DNA from: Leucoraja ocellata
Lineage: Eukaryota
Direction: 5' to 3'
Assembly: GCA_036785375.1 (NCBI GenBank)
Contig: JAWMAR010000234.1
Location: 2,480,001 to 2,544,000, forward strand
Length of the DNA stretch: 64,000 bases
The notes below the pieces were generated by a model that saw only the letters and a list, made by a program, of their open reading frames with translations, did no database searches and had not been told where the DNA came from. The position numbers and the translations under genes are program-made. This document shows positions 764 to 59,490 of the stretch, in pieces (positions within the stretch are counted from its first letter, which is position 1; each line of letters begins with the position of its first letter).

Positions 764-948
764 CTAGACATTAGAAGAGATGTTAGCAGAAGATTGCACA
801 TCAAATTTGCATCAAGTAGAATAAGAAAAAACTGCATCTATTTTCTCTTCAATCTCCTAGAAATCCTCTTTGTCCTTCTTTATTAGGATCTGGTAAGACT
901 CCAGTTGGTTGGAATTGGTCTGGTGGTCTTTCAGAGACTGGGTCAGAT
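764..948 (-). ncRNA. Predicted exon H (185 nt) of minus-strand non-coding transcript
   Basis: Acceptor tttttttttcttggttgcacatcgatag|ATCTG and donor TCTAG|gtcagt. Internal stops in the frames read. Confidence 0.5.
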
Positions 949-1304
949 CTATCGATGTGCAACCAAGAAAAAAAAATACAAAATACAAATTGTAGTTCAG
1001 GCTATCATTTTGCAAATCTTCCCAAGATCTAGAGTGGAAAGCAAATGGCTATAAGCTGATTTAATTGTTTCTGGATATAGATACTCCTCCTGTTGCTAAT
1101 ACTGGTGACAGGAGCAAAGTTAAAAGATGAAGGTTTTTTTTCTCTGTTTTTGTCCACCTTGTTCTGAAGAATCTGACTCTTTTGGAGGGTACAGTTCAAT
1201 AGCTGTCAATCATCACCTAACCATTAAAATGTGCATGTGCTCAAGATGAGTACTGACATTCTTAATGTAGAACATAGATAATACAGCAGAGGAACGGCGA
1301 GGAC

Positions 1305-1514
1305 GTGAGTGCTTGGAACACATTACTAGGGCCGGTGGTGGAGGCAGATGAGATATTGGTGTTTAAGAGGCTTTTGGTTAGGCCCATGGAAGTACAGGGA
1401 ATAGTGGGATGTGTATCATGTAAAGGAAGATAAGATCAGTTTAATTGGCATCATGTTTAGCACAAACAATGTGGGCTGAAGGGTCCGTTCCTGTGCTGTA
1501 TTGTCTACGTTCTA
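1305..1514 (+). mobile_element. CR1 LINE 3' end (degenerate)
   Basis: WN.LP..VVEA-type coding remnant plus the CR1 3' UTR GGGCTGAAGGGTCCGTTCCTGTGCTGTA..TTCTA. Confidence 0.75.
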
Positions 1515-1849
1515 CTCAAATTGGGTAATGTAGTCTTCTATATGCATCTGCGAAGTCATGGGTGATTTGGGTTTCTTTGCTAGCAAAATAAAACATAACT
1601 GCATTTTTTCAGCAGAAATCATGAATATGTGCTAAAGGCCTAAAATAGTTCACAGGTGTGGAGGTGTCAGGGGTAGGAATGATGCCAATGATTCAAAGCT
1701 GACATCTCAGTTAATTGATGTGTTGGTGATTGCAAATATGATTAATATTCACAAGCTCAAAAGGCAATACCACATCCTGGAATATTAGGATTGCCAAATG
1801 TTATCATTTTAAAAATACATACATGATTATGTAAACAACAGAAAGGCTC

Positions 1850-1948
1850 GATTGTAATCATGTAGTGACTTTCCGCTGAGTGGTTAGCACACAACAAAAG
1901 CGTTTCACTGTACCTCAGTACACGTGACAATAAACTAAGCTGAACTGA
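1850..1948 (+). mobile_element. Rex1/L2-type LINE or SINE 3' tail
   Basis: TTTCACTGTACCTCAGTACACGTGACAATAAACTAAGCTGAACTGA. The same tail occurs at ~12600, ~55680 and ~58680. Confidence 0.6.
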
Positions 1949-2341
1949 CACATAATTTGATGGTTACAATTTTAATGAGAATTCTTTGAGACATTCATGC
2001 TCTTCTTGACGTTTGCTCTTACAATACAAGGTCTCAAACCCATTTGATCACTGTCTTGTTTCAGCCCCTCCACTTGATCTGGCAAATACCAATGAAGTCA
2101 AAGTTATGAATTACTTAGATTTTCTAGATCTCTTGTCCATAAACAGATACCAGGATAGCAACAGTTCCTTCAATCAATGATGAGGACAGAGGAAAAAATG
2201 CTGTGAAAGATATGCACAAATGCATACATTATCACATAAATGCTGTATCGTTCAGTAACAAACTATTAGCTTTCTGCAGATATTTTCAGGACCTAATAAT
2301 TCTGGTCAGGGTCATATAACCTAAAAGATTCTAAATATAAT

Positions 2342-3380
2342 GTCATAAAGTCATATGGCACTATAACAGGCTCGTCGGGCCAACTCTTCCATGCTGCCTA
2401 AGATGCCTATCTAAGCTAGTCCCATTTACCCCCACATGGCCCATATCCCTCTAAACAATTCCTATTCATGTACCTATCCAAGTGGCTTCTAAAGTTTGCT
2501 AATACACATACCTTAACTACTTTCTCTGAAGCTCATTCCCTATATTCACCATCCTCTTTGTGAGAAAGTTGTCCCTCAGGTTCATATTGAATCTTTACCT
2601 TCTCACCTTAAACCTATGCCCTATTCTAGGAAAATATTCTTTGCATTCACCCTATCTTTGCCCGTTATGATATTATACACCTTTACAAAATCACCCCTCA
2701 GCCTTCTGCACTCCAACGAATAAAATCCTAGCCTGGCCATCCTCTCCATATAGCTCAGGCCCTTGAGTCCTGGCAACATCTTTGTAAACTTTCCCTGCAC
2801 CCTTTCCAGCATAATGGCATCTTTCCTTCAGAGGGCTGACCAAAAACTGAACACAGTACTCCAAGTGTGGCTACACCAACATCCTGTACAACTGTAACAT
2901 AGTGTCCAAACTTCGGTTCCTGACCTGAAACATCACCTGTCCATGTACTCAAGAGATGCTGCCTGACTCGTTAAGTTACTCCAGCACTTTGCGTCTTTTT
3001 TTCCCCCAACTTCTTCACTCATTTCCCTGACTGATGAAGGCCAACATGCCAAAAGCCTTCTTCACCACCTATGTACCTATGATGCCACTTTCAGGGAATT
3101 AAGTACTTATAGGCCTAGATCCCTCTGCTCTACAACACTTCCCAGGGCCCTACTGTTCACTGTAAAGGTCCTGCCCTGGTTTGATGTGCCAAAATACAAC
3201 CGCTCACACTTGTCTGAATTACAATAGCCATTCTACTACCAATTTGCACAGCTGATCAAGAATCTGATGTAACTCTTGATAACCATCTTCACGGTCTTTC
3301 ATCTATTTTAGTGTCATCTGCAAAGTTACCAATCATGCTTTGTACATTTTCATTCAAAGCGTTGACATGTATTATGTTTT
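2342..3380 (-). mobile_element. CR1 LINE 3' portion interrupted by a Penelope-derived repeat (~2915-3000)
   Basis: ORF 2621-2812 LERVQGKFTKMLPGLKGLSYMERMARLGFYSLECRRLRGD is the CR1 RT C-terminus. The 3' tail is at ~2342. Confidence 0.85.
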
Positions 3381-3477
3381 ATCAAGTTTTATTTAAAAAA
3401 ACCTTCTCATGAAGTTATAATGCGACAATCTTAAGATGGAGAAATCACTAGTGTGATAGCAGTTCATAAACGAGAGC

Positions 3478-3672
3478 AGACACATGTTGGAGTAACTCAG
3501 CGTGACAGGCACCATCCCTGGAGAGAAGGAAGGGGTGACGTTTCGGGTCGAGACCCTTCCAGGGTCACCCATTCCTTCTCTCCAGAAATACTGCCTGTCC
3601 CGCTGAGGTTCTCCAGCATTTTGCGTCGATCTTTAATGTAAACCAGCATCTTTGTGCAGTTCTTTTGTTCAC
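3478..3672. mobile_element. Penelope-derived palindromic short repeat
   Basis: TGGAGTAACTCAGCG..GTGACGTTTCGGGTCGAGACCCTT followed by its inverted copy GTCACCCATTCCTTCTCTCCAGA..CTCCAGCATTTTG. Confidence 0.8.
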
Positions 3673-4510: not shown

Positions 4511-4602
4511 CTCTCGGTGACATTGTCCTTCAGCAGGTGTCTTGACTTTCAATGATCTTTTAAGCTTTAAGACCTTGTTGCCGAATATTTATTTTCTTTG
4601 AT
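4511..4602 (-). ncRNA. Predicted exon G (92 nt) of minus-strand non-coding transcript
   Basis: Acceptor ttttttgtttcttttaaag|ATCAAAG and donor GAGAG|gtaatg. Confidence 0.5.
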
Positions 4603-4869: not shown

Positions 4870-5072
4870 AAGATGGACACAAAATACTGGAGTAACTCAG
4901 CGGGTCGGGCGGCATCTCTGGAGAAAAGGAATAGGTGATGTTTTTGGTTGAGACACTTTTTCAGACAGTTAGACCAGTCAGAAGAAAGGTCTCGACGCAA
5001 AGCATCACCTATTACTTTTTTCCAGAGATGCTGCCTGACCCGCTGAGTTACTTCAGCATTTTGTGTCCATCC
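4870..5072. mobile_element. Penelope-derived palindromic short repeat
   Basis: Inverted arms GATGGACACAAAATACTGGAGTAACTCAGCGGGTC ... GACCCGCTGAGTTACTTCAGCATTTTGTGTCCATC. Confidence 0.8.
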
Positions 5073-5700: not shown

Positions 5701-6489
5701 ACCTATTACGTTCAAGTCCACAGGTGTTTCTCTACTGCGGTAATCTTTTATGGGGCACTTCACAGATCAAATTTTGTATAACAAAATTTGCTACATCCAT
5801 TGGCTTCCTTGTTATCTAACATGCTGGTTACTTTGTCAAAGAAGTCATCAATTGGTTGAACACAATTTCTCATCCATAAAATTAAACTCACTCAGCTGTA
5901 TAAGTATTCTGTTACCATTTCATTCATTTTCAGGACAAACTGTCCTGAAACATTTTCACCCCAATATTTTCAGTATTTTGCTGTCTTCCTCTCAGCTGGG
6001 ACTTTTCCAAAATGCAAAGTCCAATAACTATATATTTAAGCAATATTGTTTTATTAAATGTGATCTTGAGAGTACATAATATTTTCTGTGGTATTCATAA
6101 CACAACAATGATAAAAAATATCTTTATTTTGATTGCACCTACCAGCATGCATACATTATTATATTACAGTTAATATGTACTGAGGGCAATTTTATGTTCC
6201 AATACACCCCATTCCCAATTACTTTTACATTGAAATGATTGAAATCCAAGTGAAGTTTAAATGGCATCAGAAAAATAAAACCTCCGGAATGGATTATATT
6301 CATTATGTGGTTGGTTGGAGTCGGTATCAGCACAATTATTATATTAAACTTTGAATCTTCAGATGTCCTGGTTCAAGCTAAAACTGAAGACAAATAATAA
6401 CCTCCTCACACATTTCCCTGCAAGTATCTGTGTCACTCCTTTAAAATATGTCTCTTCTTTGACCAAGCTCTTAAACATCGCATCTGAAT

Positions 6490-7254
6490 CATAGAAACAT
6501 AGAAATTAGGTGCAGGAGTAGGCCATTCGGCCCTTCGAGCCTGCACCGCCATTCAATATGATCATGGCTGATCATTCAACTCAGTATCCCGTACCTGCCT
6601 TCTCTCCATACCCTCTGATCCCCTTAGCCACAAGGGCCACATCTAACTCCCCCTTAAATATAGCCAATGAACTGGCCTCAACTACCCTCTGTGGCAGAGA
6701 GTTCCAGAGATTCACCACTCTCTGTGTGAAAAAAGTTTTTCTCATCTCGGTTTTAAAGGATTTCCCCCTTATCCTTAAGCTGTGACCCCTTGTCCTGGAC
6801 TTCCCCAACATCGGGAACAATCTTCCTGCATCTAGCCTGTCCAACCCCTTAAGAATTTTGAAAGTTTCTATAAGATCCCCTCTCAATCTCCTAAATTCTA
6901 GAGAGTATAAACCAAGTCTATCCAGTCTTTCTTTATAAGACAGTCCTGACAGTCCAGGAATCAGTCTGGTGAACCTTCTCTGCACTCCCTCTATGGCAAT
7001 AATGTCCTTCCTCAGATTTGGAGACCAAAACTGTACGCAATACTCCAGGTGTGGTCACACCAAGACCCTGTACAACTGCAGTAGAACCTCCCTGCTCCTA
7101 TACTCAAATCCTTTTGCTATGAAAGCTAACATACCATTCGCTTTCTTCACTGCCTGCTGCACCTGCATGTCTACTTTCAATGACTGGTGTACCATGACAC
7201 CCAGGTCTTGCTGCATCTCCCCTTTTCCTAATCGGCCACCATTTAGATAATAGT
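6490..7254 (-). mobile_element. Young 5'-truncated CR1 LINE (RT C-terminus + 3' UTR)
   Basis: Open frame YYLNGGRLGKGEMQQDLGV...QRRFTRLIPGLSGLSYKERLDRLGLYSLEFRRLRGDLIE..WNSLPQRVVEA with a (TTTCTATG)n tail at 6490-6505. Near-identical to 34629-35146. Confidence 0.95.
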
Positions 7255-7522
7255 TTCCATCTGATTACACCCCTCCAGGATGCACCGAGCCACAGCCTGA
7301 TCCATGCCGATCACCTGGGCGAATTCGGCACAGAGACTCTCACGGCAGCGGTGCAATGCTTCCGACGCCTCCGACGGCCCGGGACTCTTGCACTGAGGTT
7401 GCTCCATGGCAGGAGCTGCAGCGTGCGACTCGCCATCCCGGAAAACACTCGCCAGCCTGGCAAACACTCGGCAGCCCCGGCTCCCCATCCGCATCTGCCC
7501 CCGCCGCTGCTTCTGCTTCCAT
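7255..7522 (-). pseudogene. TDP2: TDP2 exon-1-like fragment (N-terminal UBA-like region), frameshifted
   Basis: RESLCAEFAQVIGMDQAVARCILEGCNQME aligns with the recalled human TDP2 sequence RRLLCVEFASVASCDAAVAQCFLAENDWEME. The upstream MEAEAAAGADADGEP is in another frame. The segment is GC/CpG-rich in an AT-rich context. Confidence 0.7.
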
Positions 7523-7559
7523 CCCTCCCTCAGCCCCGGCTCTCCAACACCCGTGGCCA

Positions 7560-7704
7560 ATGCAGTTGATATGAGTTTTGAAATTTTCGTTGATCACAGA
7601 ATTTCTCAAGACAGAGCATGAGAAATTTGTGATCAGCATGAGAGTGTGAGAATTTAGCCAAATGCATGATTCTCACGCTCAATGCGTGAGAGATGGCAGC
7701 CCTG
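7560..7704 (-). mobile_element. hAT-like DNA transposon terminus
   Basis: The minus strand begins CAGGGCTGCCA (Tip100-type TIR CAGGGTTGCCA-like), followed by subterminal TCTCACGC/TCTCATGC repeats. Confidence 0.55.
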
Positions 7705-10700
7705 CCATTCATCACTTAATCATCATATTAAGCTCAATCCATATTTTCTGAACTGCCTTTTGCAATTTCATTCTCTTTAATTTTGTATCATTTTCAAAAA
7801 TAATGTCATGTAGTCAGCTTTGCATCTGGGTTAATTATGCACATTAACTATGATGGTTACAAGATTGGATCCTGTGATACATAATTATTCCGATGAGTAA
7901 TCGCCTCTTCCTTCATTTTAGGTAGTTTCTTACCTGTTCCCAGGGTTTATCTACTTTTCCCATGCTTTGAATAAGACTGAAAGCCTTTCATGTTAAGTGT
8001 TATAAAATGTCTATTTAAGTCAAGGTGCACCGGATCTTGGGAGTTCCCTTAGTTCAAGTAGACTGTCACTTCCTTAAAGTTTTTGAGCAGGTTGATCTGG
8101 CAGAAACTTCCCTGCTGGTTCTACATTGATCTCTGCTTATTAGGGTACCAGTGTCCCGATCATTCTCCAGTTTATTCCTGTCAGTTGATTCTGTACCTTC
8201 ACATGAAAAAGACAGATGGGACTGGTCTTTCCTACTTAATTATCCGTTATGAAAATGAGCATCATGTTCACCAGTTTACAATTTATTAACAGCTCCTTTC
8301 CAGTGGTCACTGTGTTCTCCCTAATGCTTTGTGGATCTTATTACTATGATAAATATCCTTCACCAGGAATTTATTTATTTTAAGCACCTATCTAGTAGTT
8401 CTCACATAAAATTAAGTAATTTGGCAAAATCGTCACCCACATTAAGAAACATGAAAAATAATAATGGTTTAGTTCAGCCCAGATTACATTCATAGGAAGA
8501 ATAATTAGGTACAGTTAATAACAGATACCCGATCCACTACATTGGGTTGTAAATGCTTGCCAAAGTTGAACATTTTGCTCACTGATTTTATTTTGGATAT
8601 TCTTAAGGAGGGTATATGGTTCACAATCTTCATCGCTGAACTCTTGGAAAATATTCTGCATTTTGCTATTATGAGCTCATTCACAATTTTTAACATTTGT
8701 GCTTTTCACTTGCTTAGTTAAACCACAACTGCCTGAAACAATGTTTTACAATTAGGTTTCACCATTTGCTGCTGGTGTTAACTTTCCCTTTTCACGTGTG
8801 TGTAACAACTTCACCCAGTAAAACCAACCTGCCATAATCACAGAATGCAATAAACTAATGGTGTGATATAGCTGTGGTCTTGCAGCAGACAATAATGCAC
8901 TAATCCTGGATGCCACCACTGTTTCTGAAAGCTGGTCCTTTTTGAGTACCAATTCAGCACAAATTTGTACAAAGATCCATAGTTGCTCTCTCCCTGTAAT
9001 TCTGTACACATATCAAACACAATCATCACAGGAGTAATATCCACACAAAACGTCAGGCCAATTGAAAGAAAACAATTAGAAAATTGTTTTGAAATGAGTT
9101 GAACACTATTGTTGAATATGTGAATCAATTTTCTTGTATTAATCCCAGGTTATGGATATCTTGTTGGAAATTAAAGCATCAAGGATATGGGAAAAAGCTG
9201 TTCAAAGCAGATCACTCCTGTGCTTCCTATGTACAACGTGGCATTCTCAGACTCAGTGGGCCGAAGGGCCTGTTTCCAGGCTGTATCTCTGAACGAAACT
9301 AAACTAAAAGTGGTACGGTTCCTTTACTGTTGTAATGTTACAATGCTTATTATGATCAATCGATACTTGCAAAGCAAGAGCCAAGATGCTACCCAGTGGT
9401 AAAAGCTAATTGCAGCAATTTATAAAGAAGAATCTTAAAATAAAATATTTCTTGATATTCAGTACACATTCTCTGGAAAATTGATATGATTATTCTATCC
9501 ATCTTAATAAAACAAATTGGATAAGTTTCTGACATTGAGAATACAATGAGCTATAATAAATAAAGAAGGCTATCTGCTGTGGTGGCAATTCTGAACTATA
9601 TCTTGCACAAATCAATATGCCCTCAACAGCTTTGAACTAGCTCTTTCCCATCATGTGAATGTAGGATATTCAGACAAACTGCTCTGACCCAACCAGGTAA
9701 TATAAAAAATTGCTCACAACTGCTTCTATTTTTCAATTCCATTTCTGAAAATGTACAAAAAGTGTACTTTTGATTTTGAGAGGAATTATGAAATGTTTAA
9801 AAGCACATGCTACCAAAAAGAGCACTTTAGTTGACAACTATTTCTTTAAGAACTATTTAACGGGATTTAACTAATTATTCAACAAGGTGTATCATGTCTC
9901 TAAATACCCTGTGTGTGTGGTATTGCCTATGCAAAAGGTGCAGTTGTGAAAGTGGCAAGTTGCACCAATCGCAGAGGGTTAACAAATGATATCAATACAT
10001 TCCTCTCGACCTTCCCTTTCAATATCGCTGCTTTCTTTGAATCTGTTGGTTAATGAAATTGTACGTTTTTCACCTTTCTTTCACAAAGTATTGTTATGGT
10101 GATTTTAAGTATCCAAAGCAATAGTGAAAGCTCACTCTTAAACCATATATTTTTAACAAAAGCTATAAAGTACTTGTATTTTTAGACATAAACAGGAGAA
10201 AATTCAAGATGTGGGGAGAAAAAAATATGGATCTCATAGATGCGATTGACAGTGAATACACATGTTGATTAACACTGAACCACAAAACACCAAACAAAAG
10301 CAAGAAGTATTAAACACAAATAAACAACATTTAGGTTAAAATCACAATACATATCTAAAGCTTGAAGACAGTAATTGGCTGAGCACACAGAGTTTGTTTG
10401 TTCAGTTGTCACAAAACTAAAGAATCCTGATCATATCATAGATCACTAGATATCGTTATAAAGGTTCCTACTTGACATTGTCCACACATTCTCTGTCATT
10501 CATGTTTCAGATATAAATCAAGCATTCTTATTTAGTAGAACAATGGTCACAATTAAAGCCACATGGCCTAACGTCATACAACCTTACTTCAAAGCAAATA
10601 AAATAACCTTTCTTTTACAACCAACGTAACTGAAGCATTAACATTAGAATTAATAATATAGTCAGGTTACAAATCCTAAAAAAGATTAAATGGTCACGTG

Positions 10701-11254
10701 GCCCTTTTGATTGGGAGCATAAAGATGTCACAGAAAATGTACTAATAAAAATTAATAAATGGCATTTTTTAAATTCTATTAGCATAGAGTTTATTTTTAA
10801 TATTGGAGTAACAATATAACCTTAATTATAAACATCTTTTGATCAACATAAGCACACTACTTTAAAAATGTACATATTCACTAATATAACTATATAAAGA
10901 TAATAAAAGTCACATGACAATATTCAATATGGGAGAAGGAAGAGGAGACCAGGTAATATTATACCACCAAAGTATTTGGTACTTAACAAACACCAAAGTA
11001 TTAAAAAATCTTTATGATCTTGCAGAATGCTTTTTGTTTAAATGTCAATTTAATTGATTTATTAATTTATATTCCAATTGATTTATTGGAACACATTTGT
11101 TTAAGAAAGAAAAATCCTATTTGTATAGATAATTTCCTAAATGTTAGATGATAGCAAAATTATTTTATGCCTAAATGTTGATGAGATTGTGGAAAATACT
11201 CGCTGTGCCATAAGTGGAAAATAAATTGGATTAAAAACATTAAGAACTTTTAAT

Positions 11255-11392
11255 ATTTAAGAAGGAACTGCAGATGCTGGAAAATCGAAGGTAGACAAAA
11301 ATGCTGGAGAAACTCAGCGGGTGAGGAGGCATCTATGGAGCTCCATCGAAGCTGCCTCACCCGCTGAGTTTCTCCAGCATTTTTGTCTACCC
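11255..11392. mobile_element. Penelope-derived palindromic short repeat
   Basis: GGTAGACAAAAATGCTGGAGAAACTCAGCGGGTGAGG and its inverted copy, flanked by AAGAAC(A)TTTTAATA duplication. Confidence 0.85.
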
Positions 11393-12309
11393 AAGAACAT
11401 TTAATAAATAAGCTATCAGTAATAAAATCATTCCATTTTCATTCTAAAAGAGGGCTTAATTTATACAGATTTGCTTCTCATTGGTTGATACTAAAATTGC
11501 AATAGTTTCCAATACAAAGATTAAAACAGCAACATTACTTGAAGAACCTAGTGTGAAATGTTATTAGTAAATTATTGAGGCTCAACAATGCACCAAAGAT
11601 ACTAAATAGATGGAAGTTAAAAGTAAACAACAACAAAAAAAAATCACGTGGTACTTCACAAATGGGTACAAGACTTTCGGTACCAGGAAAGAAGAATGAA
11701 AACTATGTCAAAGCAATGGGTTAAAGGGAATACAAACAGAGACACACAGAGGGGTGGTTTTAACTGAAATTTTACATTTCACACTCCATCCAACTTTACA
11801 TTTGATGATTTCAATGGAAAGTAAATTGGGTGGGATGCACAGGAACAACTCATTTAATCCTGTCAGTTTTAACGTAACCAGATAGCTTAGATTAAGTTAT
11901 ATTCTTAGCTTCTATTATTTCCAATATGCATTGAAAGTAAAGAAAAGGTTAAAGAGTTATTAGAATATGAATCCCAAAACCGAGAAATCAGCGAAGAAAT
12001 GCCAACCTTAGGAAAATGTTGGATCTTCTGGAAGAATGAGAGGTAATCTCAGTGAAACATATAAAATTCTCATGGGTTGGACTGGGTAGATGCAGAAATG
12101 AGACTACTCCGGGCTGGGTTGTTTAGAACATGCGAGTGGATGGAAGGGGCACAGTCTCAAATAGGGCTCAGCCATTCAACCAGGGCTGTAAGGAAATGCC
12201 ATCATTGTCATACATTCATTGGAGTAACTTAACGGGACAGGCAGCATCTCTGAAAAGAAGGATTGGGTGACGTTTAGGGTTGAGACCTTTCTTCCGACTC
12301 ATTTACTGG

Positions 12310-13320: not shown

Positions 13321-13472
13321 ATGTGTTTTGATTTCATGTTCACAGTCACTGGTTTAGGTATTGACCCACAGTATTTTAGGGGAGAGGACAGAGTCACGAT
13401 CAATACAGGGTGACACACTGGGTATGACTGGTTTGCGGCAAGTAAAAGGAAAAGGATAATGTATAGTCTAAG

Positions 13473-13484
13473 CCACTAGAGGGC
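13473..13484 (+). promoter_or_regulatory. CTCF core motif
   Basis: CCACTAGAGGGC matches the CTCF core consensus CCAC[CT]AG[AG][GT]GGC. Confidence 0.55.
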
Positions 13485-14249
13485 AAGGTCACACCTTGCT
13501 ATGATGGACCGATGGAAGAACACTGTACAATGGTACATTCATTGGAAAGCCTGTGTTCAGTGTAAAAGAAAATAGAAAAATCCAGCACAAACAAGATTCA
13601 AAGCTTTGCTTGGAGCTGGGACTACATCCTTCCCAACTCTGTTTGCACAATGCAGCAAAACCCATCCAGCATCTGAGTTTAATTCTAGTTAAATTCTACC
13701 CCGGACATACGGCTGGCATTGAACTTGAGCTTGCACTTCAGCTTGCGATGTTTCGCAGTGGTAACGCATTCTGCCTCTTCGAAGGAAAACAGCATTCAGC
13801 TCCCCACTACTATATCTCCAAACAATGGTCTTATTGTTGTATGTCAGCCAGTTACTGGGGTCAAGGAAAGAGCATTCACGTCACGGCCCTGTTTCCACCA
13901 ATCTTTCCACCACCACGCATAAGAAGCGCAAGACGCCATTGTATGCAGATGCCGAGAAGTGTGTTCAGCTCTGGCTGAACAATTTCTAATCTTGTGATGT
14001 GGACTCGATAAGAAGAAGCTAGTTACTCCAAGTTGTTGCCCCCCATGCAGTATCCAGCAAAGTCTCTTTGACACAGTGTCCCTAAAAACCTACTGAACCC
14101 ATCTGCAGTCACCTCTCCTAAAAACCATTGAGCATTCCCCAGCATTACTGTGGCCACTGAGAAACAAAGGTTGACAAAGGCACACGCACCTAAGGAATGC
14201 ATAGACACTCAGGTGAATTATTCCTGGGAGGCCAGGCAGCAAAGAACAT

Positions 14250-15030
14250 TCTAGGTTGCCTCTTTCCTACCACTTCCTCCTCTTGATCCTGTTTACTGTT
14301 AATTTGCAGCAAGAAAATAAGCCCTCATGATGGTAAGCGTGCCAGCACACAGCAGAACACGCACAAATTTCCACAACCACTCTGCTCAGTACAGACCCCG
14401 GAAATGGTGCTTCAGCACCGCAATGATCCCCTTTCGTGTTTCACACGTCCATGAATGAATGTGTCTTGCACACTCGTGTGGTCAACAGTTAGCCCTTGCT
14501 ATTGGAGCTGTGATCACGATTCATTACCAGCTGGATGCCGAGAGTAGTTTTCAATTTGGGACAGTGTTGATATACGCCGCAAAAATGACAATGATGCCCT
14601 GCACCACGGGGATGCTTGCAGTCCTTAGAAAATTGAATGCTCTCACTGATGTCCCTGGCAAGGGGGAATGAACTATAATTGGCTCAGTTTCAACTGAGCA
14701 CATTATTAACTTCCCTCATGCAATAATAGCAAGGGAGTGCAGGATTTTGGAAGTGTGGGATTTTGCAAATACCTTCAGGTCCAGCACAAATGGAAGTAGA
14801 TATATAAAAGTTTAATTGGCACAATCATCCTGACATCCTGAGGTATCTGAGCAGCAGGAAGTATCATAATTCAGAGATGGTGTCCCCATGTTATATACAC
14901 ATTGCTCCCTGATGAATTTCTGATCAGAGGAGTGCACCCTAAACATCTGGGCAGGCAGCAGCCTTCTCCTTCTACAAACTTCCAGCAGTTTGCTCTGCTC
15001 TGCAATTTTGTCTTCCAATTCATCCATATC
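14250..15030 (-). pseudogene. Fossil Harbinger transposase (HARBI1-like DDE nuclease)
   Basis: Frameshifted remnants occur in the expected order: RRRRLLPAQMFRVH..REQC; PLARD..RAFNFLRTASIPVVQGII (cf. RARGFARIAGFP.VQGAIDCTH); IIAVLKHHFRGL (cf. TIGVLKQRFRCL); a CC.LHN.AIMR-like motif; and an acidic tail. Confidence 0.7.
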
Positions 15031-15189
15031 TGGGAGTAACTAGTTTACACAAATGAAGTCAACAAAAAGTCATTCAGCACCTTCCACTCCACCCCCAATT
15101 TACTTCTGCAGCCTCAAACAACTATTAAAAGCATCAACCACGTTTATAAAAGAAGCAACACTCAGTTAATCAACCAGAAACTAATATGC

Positions 15190-15315
15190 AGGAGTGAATA
15201 AGGAACTGCACATTCTGGTTTAAACCGAAGATAGACACAAAAAGCTGGAGTAACTCAGCGGGACAGGCAGCATCTCTGGATAGAAGTAATAGGTGACGTT
15301 TCGGGTCGAGAACTG
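15190..15315. mobile_element. Penelope-derived short repeat (single arm)
   Basis: GGAACTGCACATTCTGGTTTAAACCGAAGATAGACACAAAAAGCTGGAGTAACTCAGCGGG..GTGACGTTTCGGGTCGAG. Confidence 0.8.
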
Positions 15316-16054
15316 TCTTAGTGATCCCTTTAAATAACATAATTGGAGTTCCTTCTCCCTGCTGATTATGTATTTGAGAGTGCATGTGTAATAAATGCAT
15401 GGCTAGTGGACAAGCAGTGCGCATCTCACTAATATTTATAAAGTATTCAGTACAACTCAGGCCATGAATGCACATTTACTTCTGTATCACAGTCAACTAT
15501 TTTGACACCCAAAGCCACTTGTGGTGGCAAAAGATAAGTTTTCACATCCCATTTATACCTAGTCACCTGCCAGTGCCCCGTGCCATTTACAACATGTAAC
15601 CATAATTCTGAACATTCATTGTCAGACAGGAGTGGCCTATTCACCTTGCTGAAGTCAATAAAAAAGAACAATTCAACAAGGTCCAAGAAGGCTATCCCAC
15701 TACCATAGCTCTTTTGCCCAGAGATAAAAAGCAAATTTAATCTCAGCGCCATCTCCTTTATTAAATGCAGAATCTCCTTAAGGACAGTGAAGGAGTAAAT
15801 AAGGATTGTACTAGGGTATGCTTGCAAACTTGATTATAGCAAAAATTATGCTTGAATGTGAATGAATTGACGGATTACATGTAACATTTAGTTGGTAAGA
15901 TTCAAATTTCCCAGCGTGATCTCAACAACATTACATTTGTTAACTAGATTCTCATGATAACAGTCCTATTATAAGTTTACTTTGTGTAGCTTCTAGACCC
16001 ATTCCAATACTTGAATGCATTATCGCAGCTAACAATTCAATAGTTGTGATATTA

Positions 16055-16310
16055 GAGTTATAGAGTCATACAGCATGGAAACAGGCCCTTCGGCCCAACT
16101 TGTCCATGCCAACTAAGGTGCCCCATCTGCACTAGTCCCACATGCCAGCGTAGGCTCACACATCTCAAAACCTTTCCTATTCATGTACCAGTCCAAAAAT
16201 CTTTTAAAAATGTTGTTATTGTACCTCCTCTCTACCTCCTCTGGCTATCATTTCATATACCCACCACCCTCTGTGTGATAAAGTTGCCCCTCAGCTTGCT
16301 ATTAAATTGT
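16055..16310 (-). mobile_element. CR1 LINE 3' end
   Basis: AGAGTCATACAGCATGGAAACAGGCCCTTCGGCCCAAC is the reverse complement of the CR1 3' UTR. Confidence 0.8.
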
Positions 16311-16573
16311 AATGTCAAATACAATTCCCATTACATTGTTAAAAGTTTCATATTTTAGACAAAGTGAGGCCTGCTGACTGCTAGGATGCGCTTTGGAAGA
16401 TCTATACAATGATCCAAGTTACAGCAGGGAATACTGTTGCTGTTCTAGACCACATTTGATGGTCAACAAACGGCAGTGAAAACTTACAATATTTACTGGT
16501 TATGAAACATTACTGTGTATATTTAATTGTATATATGAATGCACATAAAATACAATGTGCATGATGTCATTAA

Positions 16574-16796
16574 AGGACCTGTACCACTTATGCGATTTCT
16601 TTCGGCAACTGCCGGCACCCGTCATAGTTGCAGCAGGTCGCTGAAAATATTAAAAATGTTGAAAATCCAGCGGCGCCCTGAAAAAGGTACAACACTTTGG
16701 GCGACTATTCACGACCAAATAGGCGTCACGTGTAGACATGTCGCGGGGTGACGCCTGTAAGGTCGCCGAAAATATTGCATAAGTGGGACAGGCCCT
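16574..16796. mobile_element. PIF/Harbinger MITE
   Basis: TIRs AGGACCTGTACCACTT / AAGTGGGACAGGCCCT with TAA/TTA flanks and a CpG-rich palindromic interior. Confidence 0.85.
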
Positions 16797-17377
16797 TTAT
16801 GTCAGCATTTTGAGAATGTGATGAGGTAATATGTAAATACAAATCACTTTCCTTCTATGATACCTAAAAGGGATAAGTGAGGTACATATGTTTCAGTCTA
16901 GCTTCCGAAACAGACAAATCCAGAATAATCTAATTCGTTGGTTACAATGATCAGTATAACGAGGATCCTTTGTACTATATGCATATATGAGAATACTTAA
17001 TTCACACAAAAAAAATGTTTCCAGCTCATTACAAAATTTTCCAAGTATTCTAGAAATAACATTATTTCATACTTGTTTCATATACCCTGATTCCGGATTC
17101 AAATGTTTTTTTTTATAATTTATGGGCATGCAAGGCATACATTTCTGAATTAATAAAACCGAATAATCCGCAGACATCACATTATTTCCATCATTTAGAT
17201 ACATAAATGAACACATAGAACTTGATTTCTGTGCAGAAGTATATCAGCATTTATACAGTAAGCATTGGTGAAGCAATCACAAGCGTTTGTTACATTTCAG
17301 TCCCTGTTTCAAGGATTTGACCCGCTAACTAACTAGAAATTACATTTTTACAAAACAGATTAGCCATTCACCCTTAC

Positions 17378-17650
17378 CTTCAACCTCAAAAAGGCAAATT
17401 ATATATTTGTGTTGCATTCAATCCCAAAATTTAAGCAATAATGCAACCTTTAACTGGCTTCTACATAACATGCTGTCTGACAGATTGTACTGTTTGTATT
17501 CTCTTTTCCCTACCCAATCTCTGAGCGTGTGCATGACATAATCCCTCCTGGTCAGTAAGATGAGATAGTCCGGCCTGTTTATATCACTGCGGGCTGTCAA
17601 ATTGCCAATTATTGATTCTTTGCCAAGGGCATCGTGACAGATATTAAAAA
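17378..17650 (-). ncRNA. Predicted exon F (273 nt) of minus-strand non-coding transcript
   Basis: Acceptor tttttttctttcaatttttag|TTTT and strong donor TTGAAG|gtaagg. All three frames contain stops. Confidence 0.6.
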
Positions 17651-18671
17651 CTAAAAATTGAAAGAAAAAAAATACAAGACACTAATTAGTCTAATTATTT
17701 TTACTTTGTTCAATTCACAATCTTGAAAAGATTATTGAATCAGTTGTTATAATTTAATTTCCATTTATATTTACGATGCCCTGATTGCAACATCAAGTCT
17801 GACAAGGGCGGATTTACCCCTGGTCTTCACAGAAATGTTGCGTTCTTCAGTTTATAAAACACATATAGGCAATGATTCAGTAAGTTCGCCAGCAATCCCT
17901 GTCAAAAATGACAGTGCAAAAACTAAACTTCACTAATGCACTCATTCCACCAAACAGATTTTCCTGCTGAAAAACAGCTAATTTCTTTGAAAATAAATCC
18001 ATAACACAGTGCACCATCAATATTGGTTACCACCATCTAAAGAGGATGAGGTCTGCATAATAACCCACCAATTATTCACAGGTACGAAAAAGAAAATGTC
18101 AGCTGCTTAATTATATTTTTTCACTTGGAAGCTGATAATTCCAGTCAAACCTCAGCTCCAGTTATTATGTTACAGTTTCTATAGGAATTTTACATTTCTT
18201 CCACATTAATAGAATGGTCCTATTCCACAATATAATGAAGGACAAAGTCCAGCTCTCTTGCCATATCGGATCACTTTGCACAGTATCAAAATATATTTTC
18301 TCTTCTCCCATTCCAAAATGGAAGATCTGTCGGTATTGGAATGGCTTAACAATAATAGCAGTGTTATTCCTCTGCCACCTACTACAAATGAAGTATTAGG
18401 CAAAGCCTGAACAACAAGTATTGTTAGAAAAATAACTCATCTCACATTAGCCCTGTAATAACTGTTTCCAGAGATACAAATAACTGAGGTTTCTTTTCTT
18501 TTTCAAGCTTGTATTAATCACTACCAAAGCCTATCGCTACACAACCTAACTATTGGAATTTCACTGTACAGGTTTGTCTGTTAGACATCTCGTTCTTCTA
18601 GTCTATTAGGTCATTTTCTTCATTTCTAAAATATACTTTAAACAACTGGTGCCTGTGGGCTTTTCTCTTAC

Positions 18672-18772
18672 CAAATGTCAGAGAAAGACCATTTCAAAGA
18701 GTAGCATATTGCATCATGCAGAATTCAAAATAAGTTTTGAGAACAAGCAGAGCGCAGCTAAATAAAAGTAGC
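18672..18772 (-). ncRNA. Predicted exon E (101 nt)
   Basis: Acceptor ctctttccatgtttgttttacag|GCTAC and donor CATTTG|gtaaga. Confidence 0.6.
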
Positions 18773-19440
18773 CTGTAAAACAAACATGGAAAGAGGCTGC
18801 TAAAGAAATTGGCATTTATTTTCAAATTAGTTACTGTCCATAACTTGCAATTACCAAAATGGTTACTTAATAAAAATGATAAAGGAAAATAAACCATATT
18901 TAGAAAATAAAATACTTGAACTTGGACGAATCAGCATTTCCTGATTCAAGATAACATGGTGTTTTATGGGGTTTGGACTATTATTTGCGTGATAATAGTC
19001 CATTTTAAGTGGATTCATTTAATTTGCTGACGATCAGGAGGTTTACATTAGCATTAATGAAAGTGTGCTCTTAGTAAGCTAGATGTCAGTGTACAAAGTA
19101 TTTTTTGATGAAAACATGCAAGCGCTTAATGAATATCAGTAAATAAACAAGTGTTAAATACAGGTACAGGAGGCAGAGATAGATTGACACGCACGCATAA
19201 AGGCATATACAAAACAGAAGTAACAGGAAAGTTCAAGCCTAGCTGACGTATATGCAATTCAATCGACCTTTAAAAACTGTACACAACTACTCGCACTTTA
19301 TACAGTCAACTAAAATAAAATATATTTAAAAAACTAACACCTAGTGATATCTTTCTTTCAGCAAGGCAAATTTTAGATTAGTAGATACCATTACAATAAA
19401 TAGTTGCCACATTCACTGCTGGTGCCCACAAAACACTCAC

Positions 19441-19615
19441 ATCTGATTATGACAATATCCGTTTAGAAAGTCGAAGATAATCGTAGTTAAATATAAGCAG
19501 TAACTCTCAGGTTTTGTTCGCACATTCTTCAAAATGACCTAATAATGTTCAAACGCCATGCTTAAATAGTCACGGAATAGAAAATAGTTTTATTTTGACT
19601 GGGATCATTCTGATC
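19441..19615 (-). ncRNA. Possible additional exon (175 nt)
   Basis: Donor AGAT|gtgagtg; weaker acceptor tttattttttttaatcaag|GATC. Confidence 0.3.
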
Positions 19616-20460
19616 CTTGATTAAAAAAAATAAATCATAAATCATAAAACAATTTGGAGCTATATAAAGCCAATTGGTAATGTCTTTGAGCAGAATGTTA
19701 TGCCATTATAAGAAGCAACCCAATGCATGGAAACAATGGAGGATTGCGGTCAAGCTAACACGAGAGGACAAAATGCGCCGCGAGACACAACTAATCTGAC
19801 CAACTCAATGCACATATTAGTCGGAAGGTTTAGATGATGATTCTGCTTTATAAGAAGTAATCATCATTACCAATTATAAGGATTTTAGTTAGATGTTATG
19901 TAATCTGCTAACTTGCAGACACTGGATTGGACTGACCATGTGTCTCAGATGACCTGAGTCATCGCTTGCTCAATCAAATTTTTAAAAAAATTAATAGAAC
20001 AAGTTTGGAAACACATATACGTAACCGAAGAAATTCCATAGAAATCAAATGTTCTTTTTTCTCTTTTTAGATATTGTTATTCAGATTCTACAGAAAAAAA
20101 ATATTAAATGTAAACTGCACCTAGAAACGGAATATCCAAAAGCCGATTTGTCATTGGTAGATTTGAGTAGCACAGGGTTAATTAAAAATTAAGAAAAAGA
20201 TGCAAACGGGTCCAAGTATATACAAGGTTGTTTCACTACTCCAGCACATTCAAGTAATTGTGCCCACAAATAATCATTCCTAAAAATCATTGTTTCTCAA
20301 ATAAATCCGACAGTAAAAATACAGTAAGAAAGTGACAGGATAAAAACACAATAAATTGTTGATTTTTACAATTACAAAAAAAAGCAGAAGCCAGAATTAC
20401 TTGATACAGTGTGCGCGCCAAAATCAGACGACACAACAACAGGCATTTCTAAAAGCTCAC

Positions 20461-20509
20461 TCAATACAGTCCATCCAAACAAAGCATACAACTATACCAA
20501 CTTTAGTAC
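20461..20509 (-). ncRNA. Predicted exon D (49 nt; alternative acceptor extends it to 20530)
   Basis: Acceptor tttttgtttcgttccgtttag|GTAC and donor TATTGA|gtgagc. Confidence 0.4.
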
Positions 20510-20710
20510 CTAAACGGAACGAAACAAAAACTGCAAGAAAAACTCAAATGAAGAGGATAGGCAGTAATCTACTAAGGGTTATATGCATACGCCAATGTCA
20601 AATTTGCGGAAAGCACTTTGGTGCATAAGGTTCATGAAAAATACTTTTGGGGAACAGCAGAGCCATTTTCATACTCTCCCTTTAACCCCTAACATTAAAT
20701 ATTCACTCAC

Positions 20711-20927
20711 CCTCACAGGAAGACGTTTGATCCATTGTGTGTATTGAAAATAATCATTAAAGCAAACCCAAAAAAACAAACAAATCAGCTCTTATTTTCT
20801 CTGCTGTTTCACGCTGCCCCATATTCCTGCGCCAGTAAAGGGTGGTAACCAACAGAGACACTGCATTATAACCCAGGAAGAAAGACTGGCATTGGTCCTA
20901 GAACATGTGCACTCTAAAATAAAAGAC
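20711..20927 (-). ncRNA. Predicted exon C (217 nt; alternative acceptor at 20913)
   Basis: Acceptors gtttgtttcctag|GTC or tcttttattttag|AGT; strong donor GTGAGG|gtgagtg. Confidence 0.55.
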
Positions 20928-21249
20928 CTAGGAAACAAACCTTCGCTCATCAGCGAATTGCAACTTCACTGTACTAAACAACCACTTTAAAGCCAAAATG
21001 GGAAAAATACGGAAAATTTTGACATAAAGCAGAGAAACAAACAAAATTAAGCACGAAAGATGGAAACTACAGCAGGCGCTGCCATCTTTCGAAAGTGAGG
21101 CAGCAGCGATTTTCATACACATTGTTTGCAAATATAAACTTAGTTGGCTATGGCATTCATATTAGTGTAAGAAACTGAAAATACAGCCCATCATTACAGT
21201 ATTGCATAAAAAGAACAGTGGATGAGGGTGAGAGAGAGAGTGCAAGAGA

Positions 21250-21387
21250 NNNNNNNNNNNNNNNNNNNNNNNNNNNNNNNNNNNNNNNNNNNNNNNNNNN
21301 NNNNNNNNNNNNNNNNNNNNNNNNNNNNNNNNNNNNNNNNNNNNNNNNNNNNNNNNNNNNNNNNNNNNNNNNNNNNNNNNNNNNNNN
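21250..21387. other. Assembly gap (138 N) within GA-rich microsatellite
   Basis: Run of N flanked by (GA)n on both sides. Confidence 0.99.
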
Positions 21388-21436
21388 GACCGTGAGAGAG
21401 AGAAAGAAAAAGAGAGCGAGAGAGGGAGATGCTTAC

Positions 21437-21502
21437 CCCCAAAAAGTATAAGATATCGTCAGGGACAGAAATGGGAAAGCATTCACCTTGTATCCTGCCA
21501 TC
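21437..21502 (-). ncRNA. Predicted exon B (66 nt)
   Basis: Branch-like ctgac, acceptor ttttcttgtctgcattacag|GATGGCAGG and donor TTTGGGG|gtaagc. Confidence 0.7.
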
Positions 21503-22674
21503 CTGTAATGCAGACAAGAAAACAGTCAGCTCCATTTTTACAAGTACTTACAGGCCTGAGTAATGGAAGGCGGTCCCTACCTAGCAACCACTTCCAGTTT
21601 TCATCTGCAGGCTTTCCCTGCCATCCGTGCCCCCAACTCCCGCCCCCCCCCCCCCCCCCCAACCACCTTCAGTTGCCAGGCTAGTGACAATGGGAGGCTG
21701 AAGGGTAGCTGGAAACCAGTGTGTTAAACTCGTCTGGTAGTTAACAAGTCTTTGAATGAAGAATGTTAGCAAACAGACAAACAGCATGTCTGATGCATGC
21801 TAATAACATTGCTGGTCCAGCCTCACAACCAAGCCTATGAATTATTCAACAGACAGAAGCGACCACCACCGCCCCCACCACCATCCACCCCATCAACATG
21901 CTCCCCCCCCCCCACCCCACAATTCAAATACCAGCAGTGAGGACAAAAGTATCTTCATACATTTTTCAAAAAACAGCTCTGTCTATTTTCCCTTCTTACT
22001 TCCAAATTGAAAGTGAAACTAACATGGCTTAACTCAAATTATTTATTACTTTCATTCCAGAGTATCATCAATAATCCTTTTCGCACTGATCTGAATATTT
22101 TCTTTCACAGCCTATTTTATGTCTTTTGTCTGAAGTTGGCACCTGTCCCAACCAGCGCTCTGCTGCACACCCTGTTCCCTTCCAATCAGTATTTGGAAAA
22201 AAAAATGAGGACCCAGAAGTGCAGCTATTTCAACACAGCCATCGGCAGATCCACATCTAACGCTGTCCTTTCATGCACAGATGCGCAGTATAATCAGAAG
22301 ACCAAGCTGTTTTCCTCTGAGTGGCAGTATACTCTCGTATTTTGTAGCAAGCATCACCATAACCCATGCAGGATTAAGTAGGCACACAGTAAAATTCAAT
22401 ACTCAAATCAGGAAAGATTTATTCATTTCAATAACACATTACAGCTGCACTAACCCTCACGTTACTTCACAGAAAGCCAAAAAGAAAGGAAAATATCATT
22501 CAACCAAAACAATGTGAACCTCATCTTCTGCCAACCAGTCACAATAAAGAAACAATAAACAAAAATCCAGTTTGTCGTGAGGAGAAATCTTCTGGTCTGG
22601 CAAAGGCTGTCTGAGGGGGAGGCCCTTGCTACAGGAACAGAAGCAGTATAAGCATAGCTCAGTCGCCCTCTCAC

Positions 22675-22950
22675 CAGAGTGACTGCAACTGTCTATCAAA
22701 GAGGAAAGAGCTGTACCGAGAGGCCTGAGCTGATGATGAAATAGAGGCATGTTCTCTCCCCCACCACCCCCAACGGCACCCCCCGCCACTCTCCCCCTCC
22801 TTCTGCCCCCTGTGTGAGAGCTAGCTACTTTCATCACACACACAGCCATGAATCGTGCACCAACGATCTTCTGCCTGAGCTGGACCGCACTGCGCCAGCG
22901 CACACACTCGCCTCCTTGCAGCCTCCACCCCTCCTTCCCTCAAACGATTG
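22675..22950 (-). ncRNA. Predicted first exon A / promoter-proximal GC-rich segment (5' limit approximate)
   Basis: Local GC/CpG-rich island (GGAGGCGAGTGTGTGCGCTGGCGCAGTGCGG) ending in the donor CACTCTG|gtgaga. No clear upstream acceptor. Confidence 0.5.
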
Positions 22951-23927
22951 CACACTCTTTTGAGCCAGGTAATGAATTAAGACACGAGACGGATTTCTTC
23001 AATCTTTAAAAAACACATCATTCTCAATGCAGCCTTACTAATTAACCTTTTACTTTCTTTCTATAGCTGTACCCACAGCAATCGCAAGAGATAATGCGCT
23101 ATTTTAAAAAACAATTTGGAAAAAGAAAGTCCTCGAAGATTATATATCAAAGCACATTACTACAAAGCATCATTATTTAGCCTTGAGAATCAATATAGAA
23201 AAGTAAATCCACACTTAATTGAATAATTTTGTTCTCATGTCCCTGCTCTTAACCAGCTGCTCAACCAAGTTAAAACTGTTCGACCCTTACAACTATCTTG
23301 GCATGGAGTCAAAGGCTGATAAGCATTTGGGCGAGACAGCAACTGCTGTGCTGGAAGAAAAACAGCTGCCATGATTGCTGTTAGGTTGAAAATGTGCAGA
23401 AAGCAAATCTGGCTCTAAATACTGCACATAAAATGCTGCTGGACTCCACTAATCAGTACATTTTGGAACCTATTTTTCAGACGATTTCAGCAAAGTTTCC
23501 ATTTTTTGCTGTGCTTTTAAACTTTGCCTGTGCAGCGTGCTTCCCTCCCTCCCCGCCCGTCCCCTCCCCCCCAACAGTAACCTCAAGCAAACTTAAGGAA
23601 TCGTGCCAAAAGTCACGTTGCAGCTTTAAATGCATTTGTTGGGAGTGTCCTAGGATTCGAGCTTCGCTTCGCCAGCTAACTCAAATTATAATTTTAGCTG
23701 GCTATCGTGAATTGAAAGTGGTATTTTTCTAAGTAATATTTTTATGATCAACATATGGTAGATTACTGTAACTCTATTGTAAAACAACTTCCTGCCCCTT
23801 TTGGCACAAGTTCGAGAAGCTGCTCGAATAAGTTCAGAGTACATATTCCTACCCCCTTCCACCAGCATCACCCCGCCCACTCTACGCCTGCTGCTGCTGC
23901 TGAAAGACCGAGGCAAACTTTTTAACA

Positions 23928-23930
<3 letters not shown>

Positions 23931-23964
<34 letters not shown>

Positions 23965-24022
23965 TCTCGCACATCCTCTCTTTCTCTCCCTCTCTTTCCC
24001 TCCCTCTCTTTCTCTCCCTCTC
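23931..24022. repeat. (CT)n/(GA)n polypyrimidine microsatellite
   Basis: About 90 bp of almost pure C/T on the plus strand. Confidence 0.95.
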
Positions 24023-24237
24023 GCTGTGTGCTTTGGTAGATTTAGAAGAAGAAGAACAGTTTACATGGACAGCTCTATTGTTGAGCATGTAGCAACCGAA
24101 GGAAGTCAAAAGTTCAACTCGACAACTTGTGAATCTAAAAAAAGGTGGGGTTTATTTTTGAACGCTAGCTCTGATAGCGCAGTTACGTTTGCTGGCTTTC
24201 ACTCCTGCATTCCCGCCCTGGAGACCGTTCCACTCAC

Positions 24238-24545
24238 TCATGGCCTACAGAAAGAAGAGGCACCTCAGACACTTGCTTCTTTTAAAAAACTAACCTGCCT
24301 CTTTTTCTGACCACAGGGTATTCCATTCAAGGTGGGTCATCAAAGTCCCACTGGTAAAATGGATATCGCTTGTGTTCTCACTAGACTATATGCCACAACA
24401 AAGCAAAACACACAGAAAAGGCCTCCACAAGCTCTCTTAGCAACAACATTTCTTGATACGTCTGCTTTGGCATAGATCAGCCTTTCTATTTGGCCAAGTA
24501 TCCTTTGCGTCACATCTCGCCATTTCTTTTGACCAATAGAAAACT
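24238..24545 (-). promoter_or_regulatory. Candidate upstream promoter and alternative first exon
   Basis: CCAAT box at 24533-24537, CRE/CEBP-like TGACGCAA on the minus strand at 24505-24512, an NFI-like TTGGCCAA, and a downstream donor CCATGA|gtgagtg at 24238. Confidence 0.4.
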
Positions 24546-58255: not shown

Positions 58256-58257
58256 CC

Positions 58258-59410: not shown

Positions 59411-59490
59411 TCACAAGGGCCACATCTAACTCACAAGGGCCACATCTAACACACAAGGGCCACATCTAACACACAAGGGCCACATCTAAC
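59391..59490. repeat. Five tandem copies of a 20-bp CR1-derived unit
   Basis: (N)CACAAGGGCCACATCTAAC x5 with no spacers. Confidence 0.97.

What the first reader, a model, noticed from the sequence alone, without database searches (positions are those of the whole stretch)
764..24545. Multi-exon minus-strand non-coding transcript; candidate chondrichthyan RMST-like lncRNA / miRNA host gene
Seen: at least eight segments with good GT-AG signals, all on the minus strand (22675-~22950, 21437-21502, 20711-20927, 20461-20509, 18672-18772, 17378-17650, 4511-4602, 764-948). They share no long reading frame, lie downstream of a GC/GA-rich promoter-like region, and sit in a window with no coding gene. 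Established: neural lncRNA and miRNA host genes such as RMST (host of miR-135a-2, neighbour of NEDD1) have tight clusters of short conserved exons just after an internal promoter. Inference: the 66-nt exon starting cag|GATGGCAG..GGTGA and the cluster spacing resemble my recollection of RMST, which I cannot verify. A skate orthologue would date the exon architecture to the jawed-vertebrate ancestor. The alternative is the long 5' UTR of a coding gene left of the window.
Basis: partly seen in the sequence, partly recalled or inferred. Interest (0 to 1): 0.75.

Follow-up and report, generated by a model that had tools for sequence, protein, structure and literature searches.

The report
Constrained gene start, RMST identity unproven
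A 2.5-kb stretch differs about four times less than its flanks between two related species and has the base composition of a gene start on the minus strand, so it is likely the promoter and first non-coding exons of a large, unidentified gene; the proposed eight-exon RMST-like RNA was not confirmed.

Summary
The eight segments are at the stated coordinates, all end in GT, seven start after AG, and no Pfam-level coding frame lies in the window (0 of 477 ORFs). But such AG..GT pairs are common here (171 minus, 130 plus), and poly(A) reads from a related species gave zero depth on segments 1, 3, 4 and 6 (one sample, tissue unknown); segments 7-8 were not tested. What is new and solid: 21388-23922, holding segments 1-2, differs at 0.6% of sites between the two species against 2.2% in the flanks (p about 1e-9). 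It coincides with a T-over-A skew step at about 23430, a G-skew peak, 5 of 9 G-run motifs and nearby GC boxes, all on the minus strand. Best reading: promoter and first non-coding exons of a large minus-strand gene whose body lies left of the window, more likely coding than lncRNA. RMST about 8%.

The parts
21388..23922 (.). Constrained block (limits set by contig breaks at the N gap and the GA tract, so the true extent may be wider)
   Evidence: 15 differences in 2535 nt (0.59%) against organism B, versus 315 in 14067 (2.24%) in the seven other pieces; Fisher p 9e-10; same contig's other part 73 in 3551, p 1e-6
22675..22950 (-). Segment 1: candidate first exon, donor only; inside the constrained block
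   Evidence: Donor in the top 0.8%; no acceptor at 22950; zero RNA depth in its bin
21437..21502 (-). Segment 2: best candidate internal non-coding exon (66 nt; an inner donor would give 16 nt); inside the constrained block
   Evidence: Acceptor top 1.1%, donor top 0.7%, branch-point-like site at -27; 11 letters shared with a human RMST primer
20711..20927 (-). Segment 3: possible exon; a stronger acceptor at 20826 would give 116 nt
   Evidence: Donor top 0.4%, acceptor top 9%; zero RNA depth
20461..20509 (-). Segment 4: doubtful exon
   Evidence: Donor weak, top 10%; zero RNA depth
18672..18772 (-). Segment 5: possible exon
   Evidence: Acceptor top 1.2%, donor top 2.4%; about 0.6 read's worth of letters in its 666-nt bin
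17378..17650 (-). Segment 6: possible exon with a 76-codon open frame
   Evidence: Donor top 0.1%, acceptor top 7%; frame has no real homologue; zero RNA depth
4511..4602 (-). Segment 7: unsupported candidate in repeat-rich DNA
   Evidence: Moderate sites; outside the stretch laid with reads
764..948 (-). Segment 8: unsupported candidate, probably a pseudo-exon
   Evidence: Acceptor score negative, top 30%; protein search of its frame empty; outside the stretch laid with reads
23931..24022 (-). GA-rich purine tract at the upstream edge of the constrained block
   Evidence: Tandem Repeats Finder; perfect part 30 nt
24218..24670 (-). Upstream motif cluster: GC box 24218, RFX-like 24444, CRE half-site 24512, CCAAT boxes 24533 and 24664
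   Evidence: Consensus matches (motifs recalled); function not shown
21616..24018 (-). Five G-run (quadruplex-type) motifs and four GC boxes, all on the minus strand
   Evidence: 5 of the window's 9 G-run motifs, none on plus; 5 of the window's 10 GC boxes lie in 21300-24800
21250..21387 (.). Run of 138 N between CT-repeat flanks just after the segment 2 donor

Best explanation
The 21.4-24.6 kb region is likely a tissue-restricted RNA polymerase II promoter with one or two non-coding first exons (segments 1 and 2) of a large minus-strand gene, probably protein-coding, whose coding exons would lie left of the window. Shown: the block is constrained between two species, has minus-strand skew, G-run and GC-box bias, and the window has no coding frame of a known family. 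Inferred: transcription starts somewhere in 22.9-24.5 kb, segment 1 (or a neighbouring first exon) splices to segment 2 and onwards as a 5' leader rich in upstream ATGs, and some of segments 3-6 are optional leader exons; segments 7-8 are probably pseudo-exons. Because the minus strand is G-rich across the whole window, also upstream, this may be an internal alternative promoter inside a larger gene. 'Coding' rather than 'lncRNA' rests on base rates (my own knowledge: strongly constrained promoters with non-coding first exons belong far more often to coding genes), not on a test.
For: Constraint 0.59% vs 2.24%, p about 1e-9, with the other seven pieces homogeneous (p 0.30). Minus-strand TA skew moves from -0.02 (24100-30000) to +0.12 (18001-23900), change point about 23430, the largest step of that sign in the window; GC skew peaks at +0.23 to +0.25 in 22-24 kb; PMC2927911 (passages) reports local rises of both skews at vertebrate gene 5' ends. 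G-run motifs 5 of 9 and GC boxes 5 of 10 sit here, all minus. No repeat shared within the window between 16706 and 31910 and near single-copy DNA depth over 17074-27700. 0 of 477 ORFs reach a Pfam cut-off.
Against: No RNA depth over segments 1, 3, 4, 6 in 7.3 million poly(A) records of organism B, a ceiling of about 1 FPKM in that one sample. Splice signals are at background density. Skew steps of the same size and opposite sign occur near 9000 and 55500, and the change point was picked after seeing the data. The piece holding segments 3-6 shows no overall constraint (95 of 4471, 2.1%). CpG is not enriched to island level. No downstream coding exon was seen, so 'coding gene' is untested.
Confidence: 0.45

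Rival explanations
1. 5' end of a conserved lncRNA or miRNA host gene other than RMST, with a hairpin or last exon left of the window.
For: Same promoter evidence; no coding frame; PMC2926783 (passages) describes lncRNA genes with constraint concentrated at promoter and first exon, as seen here.
Against: No Rfam lncRNA or miRNA family at gathering score in 64 kb, none credible at relaxed thresholds; no clean miRNA-like hairpin outside repeats in 1-30 kb; no spliced reads.
Confidence: 0.2
2. The locus is the RMST orthologue and segment 2 is an exon whose first letters are kept from the jawed-vertebrate ancestor.
For: A published human RMST qPCR primer (PMC9004165 table 1) shares its first 11 letters with the acceptor and start of segment 2 and its last 5 with the letters 7 nt further on (2 nt in the primer). 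Chance that a 2.6-5 kb transcript holds the 11-mer at one of 7 acceptors is 0.4-0.8%. RMST has clustered 5' exons, several promoters and a simple-repeat intron (PMC2926783 passages and section 11). NEDD1, miR-135a-2 and the deepest RMST domains could all lie outside the window.
Against: Whether the letters start an exon in human is unknown. The whole primer does not match there with 3 mismatches (its only such match is at 55115); its partner primer has none. The mouse-opossum-chicken 5' primer and the chicken forward primer have 0 matches; three more chicken primers score at chance (37, 57 and 7 of 100 shuffles as high). No RMST Rfam model appears even on 231-nt and 641-nt scans at E up to 10.
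Confidence: 0.08
3. A cluster of conserved enhancer elements with no stable transcript; the segments are chance AG..GT pairs.
For: Background density of exon-like pairs; no reads on the segments; constraint alone does not need transcription.
Against: One-sided skew step, G-run and GC-box bias all point to the minus strand, which an enhancer would not require.
Confidence: 0.2
4. The block is a two-way promoter and the main first exon is on the plus strand (about 22700-22968, donor at 22968, 40-codon ATG frame from 22848).
For: A fair plus-strand donor and a pyrimidine-rich leader with a good start context lie inside the constrained block.
Against: No protein shares words with that frame; skews and G-runs favour the minus strand; zero depth in the bin.
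Confidence: 0.07

Closest known systems
RMST / AK082467 (neural lncRNA, host of miR-135a-2, neighbour of NEDD1)
   Same: Constraint concentrated at promoter and first exons, clustered short non-coding segments, simple repeats in an early intron, coding-free surroundings; 11 letters shared with one human primer.
   Different: No match to six other RMST primers or to any Rfam RMST model; synteny and miR-135 not seen in the window; no expression shown.
Multi-exon 5' leaders and alternative promoters of large neural or developmental coding genes (kind recalled, e.g. BDNF-, ESRRG- or MYT1L-type leaders; not tested)
   Same: GA-rich, GC-box promoter without a CpG island, short non-coding exons with many upstream ATGs, no coding exon for more than 20 kb.
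   Different: No coding exon was reached, so no gene can be named.
LINC00461 / AK082072 (miR-9-2 host)
   Same: Conserved promoter and first exon in a coding-free region (PMC2926783 passages).
   Different: No miR-9 hairpin in the window; the one chicken primer tried has no match.

Membership tests
RMST orthologue | NEDD1 as upstream neighbour | not testable with these tools
   No genome is held for this window; no coding exon in the window.
RMST orthologue | miR-135a-2 hairpin in an intron | tested here: inconclusive
   No miRNA family hit in 64 kb; it could lie left of the window.
RMST orthologue | Rfam RMST conserved regions (1-10 exist per PMC4378963 and PMC8704543 passages) | tested here: inconclusive
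   None in the window at gathering or relaxed thresholds. The regions reported outside mammals are mostly 6-9 and may lie beyond the window.
RMST orthologue | First exon and promoter alignable from human to frog (>70% identity, PMC2926783 section 11) | tested here: not met
   Proxy test with published 5' primers: 0 matches at 3 mismatches, chance-level local scores.
RMST orthologue | Sequence shared with human RMST RNA | tested here: inconclusive
   11 letters of one primer at the start of segment 2; whole primer and its partner do not match there.
Spliced lncRNA / miRNA host gene | Spliced, polyadenylated transcript using these junctions | tested here: inconclusive
Spliced lncRNA / miRNA host gene | No protein-coding frame in the segments | tested here: met
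   Longest frame 66 codons in the full join, 135 in one skipping form; no homologues.
Spliced lncRNA / miRNA host gene | Does not splice on into a coding gene | not testable with these tools
   Sequence left of the window is not held.
Conserved RNA polymerase II promoter / gene 5' end | Sequence constraint | tested here: met
   0.59% vs 2.24%.
Conserved RNA polymerase II promoter / gene 5' end | Strand-specific TA and GC skew rise and promoter motifs | tested here: met
   equally large opposite skew steps exist elsewhere in the window.
Conserved RNA polymerase II promoter / gene 5' end | Capped transcript starts | not testable with these tools
   No CAGE data; no pile of read starts in the block (table 6).

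The most novel reading that the evidence does not exclude
This is the cartilaginous-fish RMST promoter, and segment 2 is an exon whose splice acceptor and first letters survive from the jawed-vertebrate ancestor to human, dating the lncRNA's 5' exon architecture to more than 400 million years ago.
Probability: 0.08. Interest if true: 0.6.

Novelty: new member of a known kind. Interest (0 to 1): 0.25.

Why it matters
If it is the leader or alternative promoter of a coding gene, it is an ordinary annotation gain: a constrained promoter in a lineage with few mapped transcript starts. If it proved to be RMST or another deeply conserved lncRNA, it would extend exon-level conservation of a neural lncRNA beyond frog, the deepest point in the one paper read on its exons (PMC2926783); PMC8704543 (passage) already reports RMST regions 8 and 9 across deuterostomes by model search, which lowers the surprise. 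Four searches found no paper on a cartilaginous-fish RMST in the library.

Tried and rejected
No whole genome is held, so synteny could not be read. Run search: no RNA holder listed among indexed runs; this is no evidence either way. Earlier-findings look-ups by place, sequence and words returned nothing. Rfam: hairpin 'miRNA' hits at 11302, 59720, 57122 and 3519 are palindromic SINE pairs; the TUSC7 match at 22541-22715 (21 bits, cut-off 65, E 0.8-5.8) and PVT1_7 (18 bits, cut-off 80) are treated as chance. A gapped likeness of a chicken RMST primer to 22445-22472 scores at chance (46 of 300 shuffles reach the block's best score). Metagenome scans for a vertebrate orthologue: promoter motif pattern 0 loci; segment 2 pattern 70 loci, 0 of 70 with flanking similarity (best E 0.11). 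Protein searches of the plus-strand frame, the segment 1 frame and the segment 8 frame: nothing. HMMER on the segment 6 frame: 2 hits, both sums of weak matches over tandem-repeat proteins. Atlas: best 0.92 to an unnamed cluster for segment 6 and 0.83 for segment 3, leads at most. A paper search for a 14-letter piece of segment 2 found nothing. Hairpin scan of 1-30 kb found no clean unbranched stem outside repeats. The alignments in PMC2926783 supplement 1 are pictures and could not be read; they would show RMST splice-site sequences and bear directly on segment 2.
Full report
What was checked. The window is 38% GC with one run of 138 N. Its repeats look like the shark and ray SINE and CR1-type LINE tails I recall, so a cartilaginous fish is likely; that label comes from recall, not from a call. 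No genome is held, so neighbours outside the window could not be read.

The segments. All eight lie at the stated coordinates on the minus strand; 8 of 8 end in GT, 7 of 8 follow AG, and segment 1 has no acceptor. None overlaps a repeat that occurs twice in the window. With a simple weight matrix (recalled frequencies) segment 2 is strong on both sides, segment 5 fair, segments 3, 4 and 6 weak on one side, segment 7 moderate and segment 8 has a negative acceptor score. At the score of the weakest cluster segment the window holds 171 exon-like pairs on the minus strand and 130 on the plus strand; 17378-21502 holds 10 against a mean of 9.7 per 4.1 kb, and at stricter cut-offs about a fifth of stretches are as dense. 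The splice signals alone are therefore no more than chance.

Coding content. All 477 stop-to-stop frames of 48 or more codons were scanned against Pfam; 0 reach a curated cut-off, 9 give sub-threshold hits. The eight segments joined give at most 66 codons; one skipping form (1 to 6) gives 135. Frames of segment 1, 3, 6, 8 and of a plus-strand candidate found no real homologue. Exons too short to give a 48-codon frame were not covered.

Reads. Six DNA-type runs from two studies hold the stretch, four labelled organism A and two organism B. I laid one poly(A) run of B (X7), DNA of B (X5), DNA of A (X1) and one small run of A (X8) on 7750-27700; segments 7 and 8 lie outside. From 7.3 million records (about 6% of the run, tissue not given) depth is zero in the bins holding segments 1, 3, 4 and 6, about 0.6 read's worth in the bin of segment 5 and about 1.2 in the bin of segment 2, which also holds simple repeats. 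That caps expression near 1 FPKM in this sample. The joint table showed 15 rows, all between repeats, and left 979 unshown, so the statement rests on depth, not on the joint list; the tool may also drop human-like reads. About 8 reads' worth of letters, all in one direction, fall in 18406-20403, mostly in the intron between segments 4 and 5. This could be a short minus-strand RNA ending near poly(A)-type hexamers at 19023 or 18820, or chance partial matches; 3254 of 3288 laid reads fit only in part, so it cannot be told.

Constraint. The eight listed contig pieces of organism B differ from the window at 1.8-3.0% of sites in seven pieces (315 of 14067, homogeneous, p 0.30) but at 0.59% in 21388-23922 (15 of 2535; Fisher p 9e-10; against the other part of the same contig, 73 of 3551, p 1e-6). 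The block holds segments 1 and 2. Its limits are contig breaks, so the constraint may reach further; the piece holding segments 3-6 (95 of 4471) shows none overall, though 640 nt of exon would be diluted there. Only one pair of species was compared.

Direction. With repeats masked, minus-strand TA skew is -0.02 in 24100-30000 and +0.12 in 18001-23900 (p 3e-9, change point about 23430, chosen after the fact); GC skew peaks at +0.23 to +0.25 in 22-24 kb. PMC2927911 (passages) reports local rises in both skews at vertebrate gene 5' ends. Steps as large but of opposite sign occur near 9000 and 55500, so this is moderate evidence. Five of nine G-run motifs (none on plus) and five of ten GC boxes (all minus) fall in 21.3-24.8 kb; these partly restate the G skew. 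CCAAT, CRE-half and RFX-like matches lie at 24440-24670. GC skew favours the minus strand over nearly the whole window, which would fit an internal promoter inside a larger minus-strand gene, or a replication effect.

RMST. PMC2926783 (passages, section 11, supplements 1 and 2) reports RMST promoter and first exon over 70% identical from human to frog, and only exons 1, 4 and 11 structurally conserved. Its cross-species 5' primer and chicken forward primer have no match at three mismatches; three more chicken primers score at chance. Rfam holds RMST regions 1-10 (PMC4378963 and PMC8704543, passages); none appears in the window, even on small scans of segments 1 and 2 at E up to 10, but the regions reported outside mammals may lie beyond the left edge. 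The chance of such an 11-mer is 0.4-0.8% for seven acceptors and one transcript, 11-20% over the 171 candidates available. The whole primer does not match there and its partner has no match. In PMC8936393 (passages) the same 8 letters sit in a different primer. I put RMST at about 8%.

How it most likely works. Shown: a constrained, minus-strand-biased, coding-free block. Inferred: a tissue-restricted polymerase II promoter at about 22.9-24.5 kb, silent or nearly so in the sample laid, producing a leader made of segment 1 (or a neighbouring first exon) and segment 2, perhaps with optional exons among segments 3-6, that splices to a gene body left of the window. The 28 ATGs in the full join would damp translation if all segments were included. 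A coding gene is favoured on base rates only (0.45), ahead of another lncRNA or miRNA host (0.2), an enhancer cluster without this transcript (0.2), RMST (0.08) and a plus-strand first exon (0.07).

Verdict. A real constrained gene-start region of an ordinary kind; the eight-exon transcript and the RMST name are unproven. Interest 0.25.

Noticed in passing
window 7246-7593 (-): Frame with a sub-threshold UBA-like hit (PF14555, E 0.006) directly beside a LINE fragment; it resembles the N-terminus of TDP2 as I recall it, so possibly a retrocopy fragment.
   Followed up: no
window 18406-20403: About 8 reads' worth of poly(A) RNA letters, all in one direction, in single-copy DNA between segments 4 and 5, upstream of poly(A)-type hexamers at 19023 and 18820 on the minus strand; short transcript end or chance partial matches.
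   Followed up: partly
window 22848-22968 (+): 40-codon ATG frame in good start context ending at a plus-strand donor inside the constrained block; no homologue.
   Followed up: partly
window 22676-22849 and 17421-17650 (-): Splicing segment 1 straight to segment 6 would give a 135-codon frame; neither part has a homologue.
   Followed up: partly
window 4872-5071, 11256-11401, 57038-57290, 59700-59811, 3465-3638: SINE copies in inverted pairs that fold into long hairpins and give false miRNA-family hits.
   Followed up: partly
window 6485-7250, 34629-35147, 59254-59415: Young LINE 3' fragments, 94-98% alike; the copy at 59372-59491 carries five 20-nt tandem units.
   Followed up: no
window 57870-58289 (-): Retroelement remnant with a sub-threshold zf-RVT hit (E 0.0009).
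   Followed up: no
window 16637-16790 and about 38740-39230: Related high-copy elements that look like non-autonomous DNA transposons.
   Followed up: no
window 1-64000: GC skew favours the minus strand in almost every 4-kb bin, upstream of the promoter too.
   Followed up: partly
window 22541-22715 (+): Weak TUSC7 model match (21 bits, cut-off 65), treated as chance.
   Followed up: partly
window 62343-62555 (+): Sub-threshold ATP_synth_reg hit (E 0.0004, 20 bits against 25).
   Followed up: no
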